A stretch of DNA of 64,000 bases from an uncultured Bacteroidota bacterium (GTDB lineage Bacteria; Bacteroidota; Ignavibacteria; UBA10030; UBA6906). The stretch is from positions 762,376 through 826,375 of the forward strand of contig CAWEKI010000009.1 in the NCBI GenBank assembly GCA_963809695.1, in the 5' to 3' direction. Below, in pieces: positions 5,211 to 27,401 of this stretch (position 1 is its first letter; each line of letters begins with the position of its first letter). The notes below the pieces were generated by a model, which had not been told where the DNA came from, ran no database searches, and saw only the letters and a list, made by a program, of their open reading frames with translations. The translations under genes and the position numbers were made by a program.

Positions 5211-6761
5211 CTATTTCACGTGAAACTCGATGCGCCGGTTTTTCGTCCGTCCCTCGGCGGTGACATTGGATGCAACCGGGAACCGGGAACCATACCCGAC
5301 GGCGGTCACCTGATTCGATGGAATCCCCCGCATCACCATCCAGCTCTTCACTGCCTCGGCGCGGTTCATTGACAACCTGTCGTTTGTTGAGACCTTTCCT
5401 GCGTTGTCGGTATGCCCGGCAATCTCCACGCGAAGACCGGGATTCAGCTGCAAAGCCAGTAAAGCCTTTTTAAGTGTCGGCTCGGACGACTTCGCGAGTT
5501 TCGCGCTGCCACTCGGGAAGGTCACCCCCTCCAGAATGATCGTCTTCCCCTTCTCGAGCTTCATGGGTACAGAAGGAGTATCGTCACTGGGATCCAGGGG
5601 GTTTGTCCCGCGCTTCACTTCATCTCCGTCATTTATTCCTCCCCCATCGGTGTCCGCCTTCAACGGGTCTGTGTGGGTGCGGCGCACTTCGTCACCATCC
5701 GACAAGCCGTCCTTGTCGGTGTCGGCAACACGCGGGTCGGTCTTGTAGACCATGACTTCATCATAGTCCGAGAGCCCATCCCCATCCGTGTCCACCTTGA
5801 GCGGATCAGTAGTGTACACCAGCACTTCGTCTCCATCGGACAACCCGTCACCGTCGGTATCCACTTTGAGCGGATCCGTTTTATACCTCAGCACCTCGTC
5901 TCCATCACTCAAGCCGTCGCCATCGGTATCCACCTTGAGGGGATTCGTTTTGTACTTCAATACTTCATCTCCGTCGCTCAAGCCATCGCCGTCCGTATCC
6001 GACCGGAGCGGATTTGTCCGATACCGTTTCACCTCTTCTCCATCCTTCAGCCCATCGTTGTCCGTGTCAGGTCGCTTGGGATCGGTCCCGTAGCGGCGCT
6101 CTTCTCCGTTGGTGAGTCCATCAATGTCGTCATCCTCGTCGTCCCCTCTGCCAAGGTAGAGCTGGATTCCCGCTTTGGCCGTAATCATCCCGTCGATCGA
6201 CGAATTCCTCCGGAAATCGATCCAGTCGCCGTACGATCGGGCTCCCACGTCAAGGACGACCGAGAAACTCTTCGAGGTAAAAAACTCAACCCCGACTCCC
6301 ACCGGAATCATCAGCGAAGTCCGGTATTTGTCATCGGGGAGATACGTTGTCCCTGACATGCGCTTGAAGCTGAGCCCCCCCACACCAGCATAGAGGTACG
6401 GATTGAAACTGCTTCCCGGCGACAGGTGAAGGAAACCCAGAATTGAGTAAGGGACTGCTTTCAGCTGCACAGCCCCAAGCTGGTATCCGTAGTCCAGATC
6501 CGTGAGAACCGGACTCTGGTTGGTCTTGAGTTGTTCATACCCGGCGCTGAGTCCAAGGGAAAAATACCTGTTCAAGCCGTACCCCAGGAGGAACTCTCCG
6601 CCGAAACTCATCTGAAGCTTGTTGAAATCGGAGATCCAGGTATTTGGACCGCCCCGGAGACCGATCATCCATTTTCCGTCCGTTTGCTGCGCATAGGCTC
6701 TGTCCTGCACTGCCAGTGCGAGCATCAGACTTACCGACAGGAACACACCTAGTCTTTTCAT
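5211..6761 (-). CDS. OmpA family outer-membrane protein with an N-terminal beta-barrel, about eight thrombospondin type-3 repeats and a C-terminal OmpA peptidoglycan-binding domain
   Basis: Signal peptide [25 protein letters not shown]. The repeats read [23 protein letters not shown] about 8 times. The C-terminus [30 protein letters not shown]...RRIEFHVK is the OmpA_C domain. Confidence 0.85.
5590..6145. repeat. tandem 69-bp coding repeats (about 8 units) encoding the calcium-binding thrombospondin-3 repeats of the OmpA protein
   Basis: The near-identical peptide units [13 protein letters not shown]-x-x-YKT-[DN]-PLKV are encoded head to tail. Antisense shadow ORFs 5673..6356 and 5788..6093 show the same periodicity. 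Confidence 0.7.
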
Positions 6762-10265: not shown

Positions 10266-10658
10266 AGATCTCCTCATATGACGTTAAATGAAAAGGTCAA
10301 GCACCGCTCGATCGAATTTCCAAGTACCGAGTACGGCGGCGGGGCATGGCGCATAACGTCCCGCGGCCACAGGCAAGGGCGTGCCACGTATTTCACGATG
10401 AACGCGTTCTGTTCTTATCAATGACACGTACCGACTAAAAGCAAGCGGCACGCTATTGGGCGAACTCACTATGTCATGAACGACTGGGTCTTCTCTTGCC
10501 TCATCAAATGCGGGAGCGTCCGTCCTCCCCCCTGAGGTGGGAGGACGGGTCGTGTGCCCGCCCGTTACCTGCCGTGTCGCGCGCGGCGGCTGATGATGAA
10601 TGGACAATGTCCCCGGAAATCGCTATGTTTCAAGAAAAGCGCAGAAGGAACTACTGTC

Positions 10659-11158: not shown

Positions 11159-11432
11159 CCTTCCCGAAACCAGCGACTGATGCCGCCACCGCGCGCGATA
11201 TGGCAGGTAACGTTTAGGCAAACCGCCGTGCCGACCGGCCACGTATGAACGACTCATCTCTCGTGGCCGGGCGGCATGGAGCGAGCACGTTACATCTAGC
11301 CAAACCTTGTTTCAACGTCGCCTATCCGGCGTGCGAGCCTGCCTGCGGCAGGCAGGCGCCGGTTTGCCGTTTGTTAGGCGCAGGCAAAGTCCAATATCAA
11401 TCGCGTTTTGCGGCACGTTCCCCCGCGCACCG

Positions 11433-21913: not shown

Positions 21914-21942
21914 TTGACACTTTGGTACAATTTGTGTAAATT
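21914..21942 (+). promoter_or_regulatory. sigma-70-type promoter for tRNA-Gln: TTGACA, 17-nt spacer, TAAATT
   Basis: Perfect -35 hexamer at 21914..21919 and a -10 hexamer at 21937..21942, 18 nt upstream of the tRNA 5' end. It sits at the end of a 535-bp AT-rich non-coding stretch. Confidence 0.5.
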
Positions 21943-21960: not shown

Positions 21961-22034
21961 TGCCCCGTCGTCTAATGGCAAGACAGCAGACTCTGGATCT
22001 GCTTATCGAGGTTCGAATCCTTGCGGGGCAGCCA
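21961..22034 (+). tRNA. tRNA-Gln (anticodon CTG), CCA encoded
   Basis: 7-bp acceptor stem tgccccg/cggggca with U1-A72. Anticodon loop cuCUGga. T-loop GGTTCGAATCC. Discriminator G followed by CCA. Confidence 0.9.
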
Positions 22035-22037
22035 CTA

Positions 22038-22071
22038 GCATTTTGGATTGCGGATTTTGGATTTTGGACTG
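22038..22071. repeat. left arm of a ~34-bp imperfect inverted repeat built of aaaatcc units, flanking the four-helix-bundle gene
   Basis: gcattttggattgcggattttggattttggactg is the reverse complement, with one unit transposed, of 22545..22578 cagaccaaaatccgcaatccaaaatccaaaatgc. Confidence 0.8.
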
Positions 22072-22162
22072 TTATCGCAAGCTGAGTACAGTCTCAATTC
22101 CAATTGCTATTTGAAAACTGGACCATGAACTGCCACACCCATTCGTTCAGAAGGAGTGTAGA

Positions 22163-22531
22163 GTGGCTGGCATCGAGCAGGATCTAAAGCAACGGATGAA
22201 GAAACTCGGCGTAGAGATCATCCGCATGGTTGAGGGTCTGCCTCACCAGCTTGGTGCTGAAACCATCGGCAAACAAATCATCCGATGTGCAACATCGATC
22301 GGGGCCAATTATCGCGCAGCCTGCCGTGCACGGTCAAAAGCCGACTTCATCGCAAAGATTGCTATTGCAGAAGAAGAGAGCGATGAAACGATGTACTGGC
22401 TTGAAGTGCTTCAGGAGTTGAAACTTGTTGAAGCCCAATCATTCGATGAGTTGCACCGTGAAGCTGAAGAGCTTACAAAAATCCTTGTGGCTTCCGGCAG
22501 AACGGCAAAACAGAGCATGGCAACGAAGTAA
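22163..22531 (+). CDS. four-helix-bundle protein (23S rRNA intervening-sequence protein / Avd-like family)
   Basis: 122 aa reading LKQRMKKLGVEIIRMVEGLPHQLGAETIGKQIIRCATSIGANYRAACRARSKADFIAKIAIAEEESDETMYWLEV. The conserved S-I-x-x-N-x-x-E-G and E-x-x-Y-W-L motifs of TIGR02436 are present. It is flanked by long inverted repeats as in rRNA IVS elements. Confidence 0.8.
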   Translation: MAGIEQDLKQRMKKLGVEIIRMVEGLPHQLGAETIGKQIIRCATSIGANYRAACRARSKADFIAKIAIAEEESDETMYWLEVLQELKLVEAQSFDELHREAEELTKILVASGRTAKQSMATK

Positions 22532-22544
22532 TCACTGCCACTCA

Positions 22545-22578
22545 CAGACCAAAATCCGCAATCCAAAATCCAAAATGC
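22545..22578. repeat. right arm of the inverted repeat flanking the four-helix-bundle gene
   Basis: Partner of 22038..22071. It ends 5 nt before tRNA-Glu. Confidence 0.8.
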
Positions 22579-22583
22579 TCGTT

Positions 22584-22656
22584 GGCCTTATCGTCTAACG
22601 GTTTAGGACGTAGCCCTCTCAAGGCTAAAATACGGGTTCGATTCCCGTTAAGGCTA
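22584..22656 (+). tRNA. tRNA-Glu (anticodon CTC); no encoded CCA
   Basis: Acceptor ggcctta/taaggct with a G1-U72 wobble. D-stem gtct/ggac. Anticodon stem tagcc/ggcta with loop ctCTCaa. T-arm acggg-TTCGATT-cccgt. Confidence 0.75.
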
Positions 22657-22754
22657 CATAACTCAACCCCTCCCATCTCCCCTTCTCTTTGAAGAATAAG
22701 AGAAGGGGAGTGTGTTGCGCCCCGCCTCCGTTCTCAGTTCACGTTTACCATTCT

Positions 22755-23840: not shown

Positions 23841-24078
23841 AGAGCACACGAGAGAAGTGAGAGAGAGCAAAAATGAAACGAATGTGATAAAAGATACTCT
23901 TCGGGAAGACGACAATCAATCAAGAAGCGCAAGGAGTTAAAGAATGGAAGATGGAGAATCGAAAATCGAGGATGGAGGGATTTTTCTCCTCAAGATGAAG
24001 AAGTCCAAAAAAACTTGGCCCCCATCTCGGAAAAACGACTTACGGACTGTAATACATATAGGAAGGAGGAAGCAATCA

Positions 24079-24459
24079 ATGGCCAAAGGAGACGATCTAC
24101 AGGAACGGTTCGTGAAACTGGCGGCTGCAGTGATTCAGTTGACCAGGAAGCTGCCGAAGGATGATGGGGGAAAACACCTGGGTGGGCAAATATTGCGCAG
24201 CGGAACTTCACCGGCACCTAATTACGCCGAGGCGAGAGGAGCAGAGAGCGACAAGGATGTTGTGCACAAGCTGGGCATCGTGCTAAAGGAGTTAAATGAG
24301 ACGGTTGTGTGGCTCCAGGTGGGAGCATGCAGCAACATCTGCACAGAAGAGGCGGTGGCCGGAATTCTGGAGGAGTGCCGGGTGCTGGCCAGGATCATTG
24401 CGGCGAGCATTAGCACGGTCAAAAGAAGAGTAGGAGCATTACCTGGTAGTGGCAGCTGA
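24079..24459 (+). CDS. four-helix-bundle protein (23S rRNA IVS protein / Avd-like family), second copy
   Basis: KGDDLQERFVKLAAAVIQLTRKLPKDDGGKHLGGQILRSGTSPAPNYAEARGAESDKDVVHKLGIVLKELNETVVWLQV matches the same family pattern as 22163..22531. GGAAGGAGGA ribosome-binding site before the ATG at 24079. The ORF-track extension back to 23944 is translated repeat DNA. Confidence 0.75.
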   Translation: MAKGDDLQERFVKLAAAVIQLTRKLPKDDGGKHLGGQILRSGTSPAPNYAEARGAESDKDVVHKLGIVLKELNETVVWLQVGACSNICTEEAVAGILEECRVLARIIAASISTVKRRVGALPGSGS

Positions 24460-24496
24460 TGTACAAGGGCGGATAAAAAAGACAACTCCAGCTTTG

Positions 24497-24596
24497 AGAG
24501 CCGGAGTTGATCGAAGATGAAGATTCGAGAATCGAAGATCGAAAATGACCCGCAATTCTCGATCCTCGATTTTCAATCCTCGATTTTCGATTCTTG
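24497..24596. repeat. hairpin/inverted-repeat element with atcgaaaatcgagga units, lying between the second four-helix-bundle gene and the 3' end of tRNA-Arg(ACG)
   Basis: gaagattcgagaatcgaagatcgaaaatg...attctcgatcctcgattttcaatcctcgattttcgattc contains complementary arms. A related left copy, ggagaatcgaaaatcgaggatgg, sits at 23950..23975. Confidence 0.5.
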
Positions 24597-24670
24597 TGCG
24601 CCTGGAGGGACTCGAACCCCCAACCGTCTGATCCGTAGTCAGGCACTCTATCCAATTGAGCTACAGGCGC
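24597..24670 (-). tRNA. tRNA-Arg (anticodon ACG); no encoded CCA
   Basis: Reverse complement GCGCCTGTAGCTCAATTGGATAGAGTGCCTGACTACGGATCAGACGGTTGGGGGTTCGAGTCCCTCCAGGCGCA. Acceptor gcgcctg/caggcgc, anticodon loop cuACGga, T-loop GGTTCGAGTCC. Confidence 0.85.
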
Positions 24671-27077: not shown

Positions 27078-27213
27078 AGGGAGGAGAAAAATTGAGGATG
27101 GAAGATGGAGGATGGAAGATGGAGGATGGAGGATGGAGGATGGAAGATTGAGAATTGAGCCTGCCTTTACATAATTTTCAATCCTCGATTCTCAATCTTC
27201 GATTTTCAATCCT
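27078..27213. repeat. degenerate long hairpin with no ORF; left arm is ggatggaagatggagg tandem units, right arm is tcaatcctcgattctcaatcttcgattttcaatcctc
   Basis: The left arm has about 6 tandem 11-12-bp units (gaggatggaag/atggaggatgg). The right arm is its approximate reverse complement around the loop cctgcctttacataa. Its sequence family is the same as the repeats flanking the 24079 gene. Confidence 0.5.
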
Positions 27214-27243
27214 CGTGCGCCTGACAGGAGTCGAACCTGCAAC
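27214..27243. repeat. 30-bp direct duplicate of the 3' end of tRNA-Arg(TCG)
   Basis: cgtgcgcctgacaggagtcgaacctgcaac at 27214..27243 is identical to 27326..27355. Two small hairpins (27248..27291 and 27297..27319) separate the copies. Confidence 0.8.
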
Positions 27244-27327
27244 TCCCAAAATAACACGACTTAACGTTTCCTGTTAAGTCGTTGTTATTTTGTGGATCCC
27301 GCTCGTTTTCCGAGCGGGACCTATACG

Positions 27328-27401
27328 TGCGCCTGACAGGAGTCGAACCTGCAACCCTCAGATCCGAAGTCTGATGCTCTATCCAGTTGAGCTACAGGCG
27401 C
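27328..27401 (-). tRNA. tRNA-Arg (anticodon TCG); no encoded CCA
   Basis: Reverse complement GCGCCTGTAGCTCAACTGGATAGAGCATCAGACTTCGGATCTGAGGGTTGCAGGTTCGACTCCTGTCAGGCGCA. Anticodon loop cuUCGga. T-loop GGTTCGACTCC. Confidence 0.85.

What the first reader, a model, noticed from the sequence alone, without database searches (positions are those of the whole stretch)
23941..24670. Second Avd-family four-helix-bundle gene flanked by gaaaatcgagga-type repeats and butted against the 3' end of tRNA-Arg(ACG)
Gene 24079..24459 has a repeat-rich left flank (ggagaatcgaaaatcgaggatgg) and a 100-bp right flank made of complementary atcctcgattttc / gaaaatcgagga arms. This right flank ends exactly at the 3' end of the minus-strand tRNA-Arg at 24597. 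Together with site 1 and the empty site at 27078..27401, this makes three IVS-like hairpin elements in 5.5 kb, all immediately 3' of a tRNA. It suggests a family of small structured elements, with or without a four-helix-bundle ORF, that target tRNA 3' ends.
Basis: seen in the sequence. Interest (0 to 1): 0.7.

Follow-up and report, generated by a model that had tools for sequence, protein, structure and literature searches.

The report
Heptamer-bracketed S23p gene beside tRNA-Arg
The gene is a working member of the "S23p / four-helix-bundle" family known from intervening sequences of 23S rRNA. Like most of its relatives in many phyla, it is bracketed by inverted arrays of 7-base repeats, and here one array doubles as the hairpin behind a tRNA-Arg gene.

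Summary
ORF 24079-24459 is a PF05635/TIGR02436 four-helix-bundle (S23p) gene. It is enclosed by 38-nt inverted arms (23940-23977 / 24558-24595) built of tandem heptamers, and the right arm starts 1-2 nt after tRNA-Arg(ACG).

The tRNA-targeting interpretation is only partly right. In 83 related loci from many phyla, 69 have the ORF bracketed by inverted heptamer arrays, against 0 of 240 control geometries. Only 3 of 80 lie near a tRNA. The same architecture appears in finished plasmids of cultured cyanobacteria, Chloroflexota, Bacteroidota and Spirochaetota, and the published Coxiella 23S IVS has tandem heptamers at its RNase III-cut stem.

tRNA adjacency is a trait of this FCB-group/Ignavibacteriota-like lineage. 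It occurs at Arg-ACG, Lys-CTT and the Gln-Glu spacer, with ORF presence/absence polymorphism and att-like tRNA 3' fragments.

ORF2 is under strong purifying selection and is ancestral at this site.

Best reading: an IVS-type cassette fused to a tRNA trailer hairpin. Its arrays are recombinogenic and probably act as processing or insulating stems. The protein's role is unknown; it may bind the heptamers.

I rate it a new variant of a known kind, of moderate to high interest.

The parts
23940..23977 (.). Left heptamer arm A (GGATGGA/GAAAATC-type units). Complementary to arm C; a direct, diverged copy of arm B.
   Evidence: I2: 38 nt, 84%; D1: 71% to 24507-24544; lag 7.
24027..24055 (+). Promoter-like motif TCGGAA-N17-TAATAC, conserved in orthologues. 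It lies between arm A and the RBS, so ORF2 probably has its own promoter downstream of arm A (inference).
   Evidence: shared by window, L001, L007, L009, L039, L066, L224. Not picked up by the strict sigma-70 scan.
24079..24459 (+). ORF2, an S23p / four-helix-bundle protein (126 aa). RBS GGAGG at 24065-24069.
   Evidence: AF2 pLDDT 93 and Foldseek 2RLD TM 0.9. dN/dS about 0.05.
24473..24509 (-). Intrinsic-terminator-like hairpin plus T-run. It ends the tRNA-Arg(ACG) transcript after the heptamer hairpin.
   Evidence: An equivalent module is present in L001.
24509..24546 (.). Arm B, the inner (GA-rich) arm of the tRNA-trailer hairpin.
   Evidence: (I13, I22).
24553..24595 (.). Arm C (GATTTTC/AATCCTC units). 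It pairs locally with B or long-range with A, and starts 1-2 nt after the tRNA discriminator base.
24596..24670 (-). tRNA-Arg(ACG).
21914..21942 (+). Sigma-70-like promoter (TTGACA-17-TAAATT) of the tRNA-Gln / ORF1 / tRNA-Glu unit.
21961..22034 (+). tRNA-Gln(CTG).
22034..22072 (+). Site 1, 5' heptamer arm (GGATTTT units).
   Evidence: (I1).
22163..22531 (+). ORF1, second S23p / four-helix-bundle gene (122 aa, 31% identical to ORF2), inside the Gln-Glu spacer.
22544..22582 (+). Site 1, 3' heptamer arm. It ends 1-2 nt before tRNA-Glu.
   Evidence: closing stem in MFE and centroid, z = -4.5.
22584..22657 (+). tRNA-Glu(CTC).
27094..27215 (.). Site 3, an ORF-less heptamer hairpin ((GGATGGA)n / AATCCTC-GATTTTC arms, 24-nt loop).
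   Evidence: I7; + strand z = -4.2; - strand z = -1.2.
27225..27252 (-). Duplicated 28-nt 3' end of tRNA-Arg(TCG), an att-like fragment.
27253..27326 (.). 74-nt insert with two hairpins. Absent from the orthologous tRNA in L001.
27327..27401 (-). tRNA-Arg(TCG).

Best explanation
ORF2 is a functional S23p-type four-helix-bundle gene. It forms an IVS-type cassette: heptamer array, short leader with its own promoter-like motif and RBS, ORF, then an inverted heptamer array.

This architecture is the norm for the protein family across bacterial phyla. It matches the ORF-bearing intervening sequences of 23S rRNA, whose stems RNase III cuts.

At this locus the distal array is merged with the 3' trailer of tRNA-Arg(ACG). 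That trailer reads tRNA, then a heptamer hairpin (arms C/B), then an intrinsic terminator. The upstream arm A is a third, diverged copy of the array.

**Shown**
- Family membership and purifying selection on ORF2.
- The family-wide bracket of inverted heptamer arrays, with a shared TCAWTTG-like consensus.
- Orthology of the site in relatives.
- ORF presence/absence at orthologous hairpins.
- Recombination between array modules: L002 lost tRNA-Arg(TCG) between two modules, and the ORF in L001 is flanked by ~100-bp direct repeats.
- Multiplication of a whole cassette in another genome (L240).

**Inferred**
- In any transcript that spans both arms, the arms pair into a ~35-bp stem. This is certain for site 1, which lies inside a tRNA operon. 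It would apply to site 2 only through read-through.
- RNase III would cut that stem, which would excise the cassette and leave the host RNAs (tRNAs here, rRNA or operon mRNAs elsewhere) intact.
- The tRNA-proximal hairpin would serve both strands as a 3'-end structure.
- New sites would be colonised by recombination at pre-existing heptamer hairpins rather than by a transposase.

The tRNA association is a habit of this lineage, not of the family. The biochemical role of the pentameric protein remains unknown.
For: **Family and fold**
- Pfam, NCBIfam and PDB matches.
- Predicted structure and fold search.

**Arms at the window sites**
- Inverted and tandem repeats.
- Folding.

**Family-wide architecture**
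- 69 of 83 loci against 0 of 240 controls.
- A 7-nt period in 66 of 69 loci.
- Consensus heptamer with 4.5 bits of information against a null of 1.8 bits, and + polarity in 58 of 69.
- Array density of 2.45 per kb next to the ORF against 0.11 per kb elsewhere.
- 9-10 of 10 finished plasmids from cultured organisms show the same bracket.

**Published precedent.** In the Coxiella IVS, the S23p ORF lies in the loop, RNase III cuts the stem, and 2-3 tandem heptamers sit at the cut site (PMC4990558).

**This locus and its relatives**
- Orthology and polymorphism.
- Purifying selection, dN/dS about 0.05 with pS about 0.73.
- Terminator and promoters.
- Recombination at modules.
- Cassette multiplication with arrays of 6-41 units.
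Against: - No transcript or cleavage data exist for this organism.
- Mismatches in the arms show no G-U (RNA wobble) bias: 92 sense against 117 antisense, and 314 transversions. Fine-scale selection on RNA pairing is therefore not demonstrated.
- The 7-nt period and the conserved heptamer consensus are not explained by a pure RNase III-stem model.
- For ORF2 the conserved promoter-like motif lies downstream of arm A. For L240 a good TTGATG-17-CATAAT promoter lies between the array and the ATG. The cassette's own mRNA would then lack the 5' arm.
- ORF2 is antisense to the tRNA and divergent from its upstream neighbour, so read-through across both arms is not assured.
- ORF2's arms have the opposite polarity to most of the family.
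Confidence: 0.6

Rival explanations
1. The heptamer arrays are binding sites for the encoded pentameric four-helix-bundle protein, with one 7-nt unit per protomer. The cassette would then be an autonomous array-plus-binder element that regulates, protects or spreads itself, and that seeds ORF-less heptamer hairpins in the genome. The relation would resemble that between RAYT genes and REP sequences.
For: - The 7-nt period is nearly universal (66 of 69 loci) and a heptamer consensus is conserved across phyla.
- Typical arms are about 35-45 nt, roughly 5-6 units. S23p crystallises as a pentamer: 2RLD and 2GSC each have five chains, and PMC4990558 cites Lin 2006.
- The only conserved component of the cassette is this protein.
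- Arm mismatches are mostly transversions with no wobble bias, which suggests that sequence rather than pairing is conserved.
- ORF-less hairpins of the same heptamer type lie elsewhere in the same loci.
- Whole cassettes multiply with hypervariable arrays.
- Avd, the homologue, contacts RNA in the DGR RNP (8UB7).
Against: - There is no binding data.
- Heptamer sequences differ widely between lineages (GGAATGC, AATTCAA, GAAAGTG, GATTTTC) with no demonstrated co-variation with the protein.
- Array length varies from 4 to 41 units.
- Polarity relative to the ORF is not fixed (58:11).
- The protein has no known catalytic residues for mobility.
Confidence: 0.2
2. One reading: small hairpin elements, with or without the ORF, actively integrate at tRNA 3' ends by site-specific recombination supplied in trans.
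For: - All heptamer arrays of this family in the 64-kb window are tRNA-linked.
- Close ORF2 relatives sit at two different tRNAs, Arg-ACG and Lys-CTT, with the hairpin abutting the tRNA end.
- Tandem [hairpin + degenerate tRNA 3' fragment] modules occur in L066, L039 and L089, and a 28-nt tRNA 3' duplication occurs at window site 3.
Against: - Only 3 of 80 family loci are near tRNAs.
- No integrase is nearby.
- ORF2 is ancient at this site.
- The tRNA-fragment duplications can be explained by other insertions at the tRNA, or by unequal crossing-over between modules. L216 has a 2-kb insert between tRNA-Lys and its fragment. The window's 74-nt insert carries no heptamers. L001/L002 show module recombination.
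Confidence: 0.12
3. Coincidence: an ordinary small gene that happens to lie beside a tRNA whose trailer has a simple-sequence hairpin and terminator. On this view the left arm is a chance or slippage product with no link to the gene.
For: - Heptamer SSRs are common in some genomes (PMC4692102, PMC4679880).
- The trailer hairpin plus terminator is a complete tRNA 3' structure on its own.
Against: - 69 of 83 loci against 0 of 240 controls.
- A 22-fold enrichment of arrays next to the ORF.
- The same bracket in plasmids of unrelated phyla.
- The arms persist although synonymous sites are saturated.
Confidence: 0.03
4. A DGR accessory gene (a true Avd) working with a reverse transcriptase.
For: Superfamily-level fold similarity to Avd (4DWL, TM 0.84, 18% identity).
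Against: - The neighbours are a peptidase S9, a cytidylyltransferase-fusion protein, Memo, CapD and MpsC.
- No TR/VR-like repeat pair occurs anywhere in the window.
- The closest structures are the stand-alone S23p proteins.
- The gene matches TIGR02436, not an Avd-specific model.
Confidence: 0.02

Closest known systems
ORF-bearing intervening sequences (IVS) of 23S rRNA (Coxiella burnetii helix 45, Leptospira; S23p ORF)
   Same: - The same protein family sits in the loop of a long stem formed by inverted repeats.
- Tandem heptamers are present in the stem. Coxiella has GACAGAT x2-3 with variable copy number (PMC4990558).
- The element is embedded in a stable-RNA transcription unit. Site 1 fills a tRNA-tRNA spacer exactly as an IVS fills an rRNA helix loop.
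- Distribution among relatives is sporadic.
   Different: - The host is a tRNA operon spacer or a tRNA 3' trailer, not 23S rRNA.
- ORF2 is antisense to the tRNA and has its own promoter-like motif.
- The ORFs here have good RBSs and are under purifying selection, whereas the Coxiella ORF is decaying and probably not translated.
- RNase III cleavage has not been tested here.
Stand-alone S23p / TIGR02436 four-helix-bundle proteins (B. thetaiotaomicron BT_0352, PDB 2RLD; X. campestris XCC0516, PDB 2GSC)
   Same: Sequence match (2RLD, E = 2e-11) and fold match (TM 0.9 / 0.84).
   Different: Those entries describe only the protein. No function or flanking-repeat architecture is given for them in the sources I could read.
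Avd of diversity-generating retroelements (PDB 4DWL, 8UB7)
   Same: Same superfamily fold; pentameric nucleic-acid-associated bundle.
   Different: 18% identity and no RT/TR/VR nearby. Avd genes were not examined here for heptamer arrays.
Intergenic heptamer SSRs and inverted heptamer pairs (Xanthomonas GGGAATC, Nostoc GGGGAYT/STRR, Beggiatoaceae TAACTGA)
   Same: Tandem 7-nt units, often as convergent pairs able to form stem-loops, intergenic, variable in length, function unknown (PMC4692102, PMC4679880).
   Different: Those studies do not link the repeats to S23p genes. Here the arrays bracket a specific gene family.
REP/REPIN-RAYT systems
   Same: A small gene flanked by inverted copies of a short repeat that is also dispersed without the gene.
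   Different: RAYT is a known HUH transposase, and REPs are palindromes rather than tandem heptamers. No enzymatic activity is known for S23p. This is an analogy only.

Membership tests
S23p / 23S_rRNA_IVP four-helix-bundle proteins (PF05635, TIGR02436) | Profile match above the curated cut-off | tested here: met
   PF05635 57.9 bits (cut-off 33.8); TIGR02436 82 bits (cut-off 24).
S23p / 23S_rRNA_IVP four-helix-bundle proteins (PF05635, TIGR02436) | Four-helix-bundle fold like 2RLD / 2GSC | tested here: met
   AF2 pLDDT 93, four long helices. Foldseek 2RLD TM 0.78-0.91, rmsd 1.8; 2GSC TM 0.84.
S23p / 23S_rRNA_IVP four-helix-bundle proteins (PF05635, TIGR02436) | Homopentameric ring | not tested
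   Only a monomer was modelled. 2RLD and 2GSC each have five chains.
ORF-bearing IVS elements | ORF enclosed by inverted repeats that form a long stem | tested here: met
   Arms of 38 nt, 84% complementary. The long-range stem appears in the MFE and centroid folds of both strands. Site 1 closing stem z = -4.5.
ORF-bearing IVS elements | Located inside a helix of 23S (or 16S) rRNA | tested here: not met
   There is no rRNA in the window. The hosts are tRNA spacers and trailers.
ORF-bearing IVS elements | Excised from the precursor by RNase III | not testable with these tools
   Needs RNA ends or an in-vitro cleavage assay.
ORF-bearing IVS elements | Sporadic presence/absence at the same site among relatives | tested here: met
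   The Gln-Glu spacer occurs with ORF (window, L089, L095) and without (L001-L006). The Arg-ACG trailer occurs with ORF (window, L001-7, L039, L066) and without (L089).
DGR accessory protein Avd | Adjacent reverse transcriptase and TR/VR repeat pair | tested here: not met
   The five annotated neighbours are unrelated, and there is no TR/VR-like repeat in 64 kb. Not every ORF of the window was scanned for RT.
tRNA-targeting integrative elements | Integrase gene within the element | tested here: not met
   No integrase-like ORF lies between 20 and 29.6 kb.
tRNA-targeting integrative elements | Direct duplication of the tRNA 3' end at the far boundary | tested here: inconclusive
   None flanks ORF2 in the window. 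A 28-nt duplication exists at site 3 but flanks an unrelated 74-nt insert. Degenerate tRNA fragments accompany the hairpins in L039, L066 and L089.
Transposable element / MITE | Terminal inverted repeats plus a short target-site duplication | tested here: inconclusive
   Inverted arrays are present. No consistent TSD appears at the three L240 copies. L001 shows ~100-bp direct repeats instead.

The most novel reading that the evidence does not exclude
S23p four-helix-bundle genes together with their inverted heptamer arrays form a widespread, self-propagating class of cassette. The pentameric protein would recognise the 7-nt units, one per protomer.

These cassettes would be the source of both the ORF-bearing IVSs of rRNA and the unexplained intergenic heptamer-repeat hairpins of many bacteria (cyanobacterial STRR, Xanthomonas GGGAATC pairs). 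In this lineage they colonise tRNA spacers and trailers.
Probability: 0.2. Interest if true: 0.85.

Novelty: new variant of a known kind. Interest (0 to 1): 0.62.

Why it matters
Two old puzzles may be one.

The first puzzle is what the S23p ORFs of rRNA intervening sequences are and how IVSs arise. This has been open since about 1990-93.

The second is why tandem heptamers, often as inverted pairs, are over-represented in many bacterial genomes.

Three results connect them here:
- The S23p gene family is almost always bracketed by inverted heptamer arrays.
- Such cassettes sit inside stable-RNA and operon transcripts: tRNA spacers here, and cas, restriction-modification and helicase operons on plasmids.
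- Whole cassettes can multiply.

Together these give a concrete, testable unit. Does RNase III cut the arms? Does the pentamer bind the heptamers?

For annotation, the result also warns that hairpins behind tRNAs in this lineage are recombination hot spots that reshuffle tRNA clusters.

Tried and rejected
1. **Metagenome scan for the unit CGAAAATCGAGGAT.** It returned 120 single hits. Only one lay in a heptamer array and none lay near a 4HB gene. These are essentially chance 14-mers, so the scan says nothing about tRNA adjacency.
2. **RNAduplex energies of sense against antisense arms.** No significant asymmetry (p = 0.2), and the energies were inflated by the long inputs. I replaced this with mismatch counting, which also showed no wobble bias.
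3. **Neighbour orientation.** 79% of upstream and 76% of downstream neighbours are co-oriented. I consider this close to the usual bacterial background (from general knowledge, not measured here), so it does not discriminate read-through from own-promoter expression.
4. **PADLOC scan.** No defence-family match.
5. **Rfam at permissive threshold.** Only tRNAs, plus sub-threshold generic long-hairpin (miRNA-precursor) matches.
6. **Literature searches.** I searched for PF05635, TIGR02436, S23 ribosomal protein, heptamer and STRR. No paper linked the gene family to flanking heptamer arrays beyond the Coxiella IVS description. Subscription journals are not covered.
7. **Search for the 74-nt site-3 insert in all fetched loci.** No other copy.
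8. **Source genome.** It is not among the species-representative genomes; the best hit there is 65% identical. The only other contig carrying ORF2 had no retrievable DNA.
9. **dN/dS for ORF1 against L089.** I mis-registered the frames, so that result is ignored.
Full report
**What is at the coordinates**

The window has four tRNA genes: Gln 21961-22034 (+), Glu 22584-22657 (+), Arg-ACG 24596-24670 (-) and Arg-TCG 27327-27401 (-).

ORF 24079-24459 (+) encodes 126 aa and has a GGAGG 9 nt upstream. It matches PF05635 (57.9 bits) and TIGR02436 "four helix bundle protein" (82 bits). The longer 171-aa reading from 23944 adds no homology. The AlphaFold model is confident (pLDDT 93). Its nearest structures are the stand-alone S23p proteins 2RLD (TM up to 0.91) and 2GSC, followed by Avd 4DWL at 18% identity.

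The gene is enclosed by 38-nt arms, 23940-23977 and 24558-24595, that are 84% complementary. Both arms are tandem 7-nt units. The arm score of 46-49 compares with shuffles averaging 18 (maximum 22-24) and with a maximum of 32.5 in 240 control geometries.

The right flank is more structured than the finding says. Read on the tRNA strand it runs:
- tRNA-Arg(ACG);
- 1-2 nt;
- a heptamer hairpin (arms 24595-24553 and 24546-24509);
- a GC-rich hairpin plus T-run, which is an intrinsic-terminator-like site (24509-24473).

This trailer folds with z = -6. There are therefore three array copies: A upstream of the ORF, and B and C downstream. C can pair with B locally or with A across the ORF, and both pairings appear in folds of either strand.

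**The two companion sites**

Site 1: the whole tRNA-Gln to tRNA-Glu spacer is a 39-nt stem (22034-22072 / 22544-22582, GGATTTT units) enclosing ORF1. ORF1 (22163-22531) belongs to the same family and is 31% identical to ORF2. A TTGACA-17-TAAATT promoter lies before tRNA-Gln, and no other promoter-like site lies on that strand. The closing stem is kept in both the MFE and centroid folds (z = -4.5).

Site 3: an ORF-less heptamer hairpin at 27129-27159 / 27184-27214. It abuts a duplicated 28-nt 3' end of tRNA-Arg(TCG). A 74-nt insert separates this fragment from the intact tRNA and is absent from the orthologue in L001.

In all 64 kb, arrays of this family occur only at these three sites.

**Relatives of this organism**

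Contigs carrying an 82%-identical ORF2 (L001-L006) have all four tRNAs in one 1.5-kb cluster. The order is Gln, Glu, Arg-ACG, [4HB antisense], Arg-TCG.

ORF2 convergent on tRNA-Arg(ACG) is orthologous in L001, L002 and L007. The two Ignavibacteriota MAG loci L039 and L066, at about 50% identity, have the same arrangement. Synonymous sites between the window and L001/L007 are saturated (pS about 0.73), while pN is 0.11-0.15, giving dN/dS of about 0.05. ORF2 is therefore an old, functional gene at this site. The arms have persisted far beyond neutral decay.

Presence/absence polymorphism exists at both ORF-bearing sites:
- The Gln-Glu spacer holds ORF1 orthologues in L089 and L095 (70-77% identity). 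In L001-L006 it is an empty ~110-nt hairpin with the same GGATTTT arms.
- In L089 the Arg-ACG trailer has only hairpin modules and no ORF.

The array modules recombine. L002 differs from L001, which has an identical protein, by a deletion of tRNA-Arg(TCG) between two [terminator + array] modules. In L001 the ORF is flanked by ~100-bp direct copies of that module.

Other close ORF2 relatives are linked to tRNA-Lys(CTT). P0017 and L009 (64-65% identical) sit convergent on it, with a heptamer hairpin abutting its 3' end. P0021 lies beside a displaced 16-nt tRNA-Lys fragment.

L039, L066 and L089 carry tandem [hairpin + degenerate tRNA-Arg 3' fragment] modules.

**The family at large**

I fetched 80 loci encoding the closest relatives in species-representative genomes: Acidobacteriota, Chloroflexota, Planctomycetota, Desulfobacterota, Bacteroidota, Verrucomicrobiota and Ignavibacteriota.

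| Measure | Result |
|---|---|
| Loci within 700 bp of a tRNA | 3 of 80 |
| Loci with ORF bracketed by inverted arms, score 34 or more | 69 of 83 (the 80 loci plus L001, L007, L008 and both window ORFs; loci with flanks under 150 nt dropped) |
| Control geometries reaching that score | 0 of 240 |
| Arms whose best autocorrelation lag is 7 nt | 66 of 69 |
| Information in the shared consensus T-C-A-W-T-T-G | 4.5 bits, null 1.8 ± 0.1 |
| Loci with the preferred polarity relative to the ORF | 58 of 69 |
| Period-7 arrays within 250 nt of the ORF | 2.45 per kb |
| Period-7 arrays elsewhere in the same loci | 0.11 per kb |

ORF2 has the minority polarity. Many of the arrays found elsewhere in these loci are ORF-less hairpins of the same heptamer type.

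The pattern is not a MAG artefact. In ten finished plasmids of cultured Nostoc, Anabaena, Planktothrix, Gloeocapsa, Pseudanabaena, Aulosira, Chlorohelix, Bernardetia and Treponema, nine or ten 4HB genes show the same bracket. There the gene is wedged between co-directional genes such as cas2/cas1, helicase/methylase and DUF1156/HEPN.

In L240, three cassettes 97-98% identical in protein lie within 4 kb. Each has (GGAATGC)n arrays of 6 to 41 units and a TTGATG-17-CATAAT promoter between array and ATG. I saw no consistent target duplication. Whole cassettes therefore multiply, and their arrays are hypervariable.

**Link to what is known**

The Coxiella burnetii 23S IVS carries an S23p ORF in the loop of a stem made of inverted repeats. 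RNase III cuts that stem. Two or three tandem heptamers (GACAGAT), variable between strains, lie at the 5' cut site just upstream of the ORF. X. campestris S23p is a homopentameric ring. The origin and mobility of IVSs are described as unresolved (PMC4990558).

Heptamer SSRs, often as convergent pairs, are reported as over-represented and unexplained in Xanthomonas, Nostoc and Beggiatoaceae (PMC4692102, PMC4679880).

In the searchable literature I found no statement that the S23p family is generally bracketed by inverted heptamer arrays, or that such cassettes occupy tRNA spacers. That library omits most subscription journals, so prior description cannot be excluded.

**Mechanism**

The best-supported reading is an IVS-type cassette.

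Site 1 is the clean case. ORF1 must be co-transcribed with tRNA-Gln and tRNA-Glu. The arms pair the 3' end of one tRNA precursor with the 5' end of the next. RNase III cleavage, by analogy with rRNA IVSs, would release both tRNA precursors and the ORF RNA.

Site 2, the finding itself, is a derived arrangement. The distal array is shared with the tRNA-Arg trailer hairpin and terminator. ORF2 appears to have its own promoter: TCGGAA-N17-TAATAC at 24027-24055, conserved in seven orthologues. This motif lies downstream of arm A, so the A/C stem would form only in read-through RNA.

Three facts do not fit a pure RNA-stem model:
- the strict 7-nt period;
- the conserved heptamer consensus;
- the lack of G-U bias among arm mismatches (92 against 117, with 314 transversions).

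They keep alive the alternative that the arrays are recognised as sequence, most economically by the pentameric protein itself.

Spread by recombination at pre-existing arrays fits the module recombination in L001/L002, the long direct repeats, and the absence of any transposase or integrase. It remains an inference.

**Verdict**

The "targets tRNA 3' ends" part holds only as a tendency of this lineage, not as the defining property.

The element is best filed as a new variant of a known kind: S23p IVS-type cassettes hosted by tRNA spacers and trailers. It comes with a family-wide heptamer-array architecture that deserves experimental follow-up.

Noticed in passing
window 27225-27354: tRNA-Arg(TCG) carries a 102-bp insertion relative to L001. 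It consists of a 74-nt segment with two hairpins (one terminator-like) plus a 28-nt direct duplication of the tRNA 3' end. This looks like the scar of an integration at the tRNA. No other copy of the 74-nt segment was found in any fetched locus.
   Followed up: partly
L240 6227-10419: Three 4HB cassettes, 97-98% identical in protein, lie within 4 kb. They have (GGAATGC)n arrays of 6 to 41 units and an internal TTGATG-17-CATAAT promoter. This is evidence of recent cassette multiplication and array hypervariability.
   Followed up: partly
L230-L239 (plasmids of cultured bacteria): 4HB cassettes are wedged inside operons of defence or DNA-handling genes: cas2/cas1, upstream of cas1, helicase/N6-methylase, DUF1156/Swt1-HEPN, and upstream of recF. 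Spacers are as short as 10 nt.
   Followed up: no
L001 4425-4885 versus L002 2700-2790: Contigs with an identical 4HB protein differ by the presence or absence of tRNA-Arg(TCG). The breakpoint lies between two [terminator + heptamer array] modules, so this is recent recombination at the modules.
   Followed up: partly
L066 3380-3800; L039 2660-4010; L089 3590-3850: Tandem modules of [heptamer hairpin + degenerate 3' fragment of tRNA-Arg(ACG)] are repeated 3-4 times between the tRNA and the 4HB gene. In L089 the 4HB gene is absent.
   Followed up: partly
L216 2880-5021: A 16-nt tRNA-Lys(CTT) 3' fragment and a heptamer hairpin sit beside the 4HB gene. The intact tRNA-Lys is 2 kb away, beyond a 605-aa gene of unknown function. 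This looks like an insertion at the tRNA.
   Followed up: no
L009 3108-3113: The 4HB ORF closest to ORF2 among species-representative genomes (65% identity) has an in-frame TAA where relatives have Gln. It is either a pseudogene or a sequencing error.
   Followed up: no
window 24027-24055 and orthologues: A conserved TCGGAAAA...N...GTAWTAC motif lies 20-50 nt upstream of ORF2-type start codons. In L224 it lies upstream of the 5' array rather than downstream of it.
   Followed up: partly
window 27085-27230: The site-3 hairpin is much more stable as + strand RNA (-51 kcal/mol, z = -4.2) than on the tRNA strand (-32 kcal/mol, z = -1.2), because of G-U pairs. No + strand gene is evident there.
   Followed up: no
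window 35400-62000: A family of paralogous genes shares conserved 3' ends (GGGTTGAACGGGTTCGGATAGTTCTG...), which is compatible with T9SS C-terminal sorting domains. Short period-7 tracts (38652, 48485) follow some of them.
   Followed up: no
window 10552-10590 / 11185-11223: A GC-rich 39-nt inverted repeat, 79% complementary, encloses about 600 nt. It ranks third among inverted repeats in the window.
   Followed up: no
window 5638-6051: A 69-bp tandem repeat of about 5-6 copies at 62-78% identity, probably inside a coding region.
   Followed up: no
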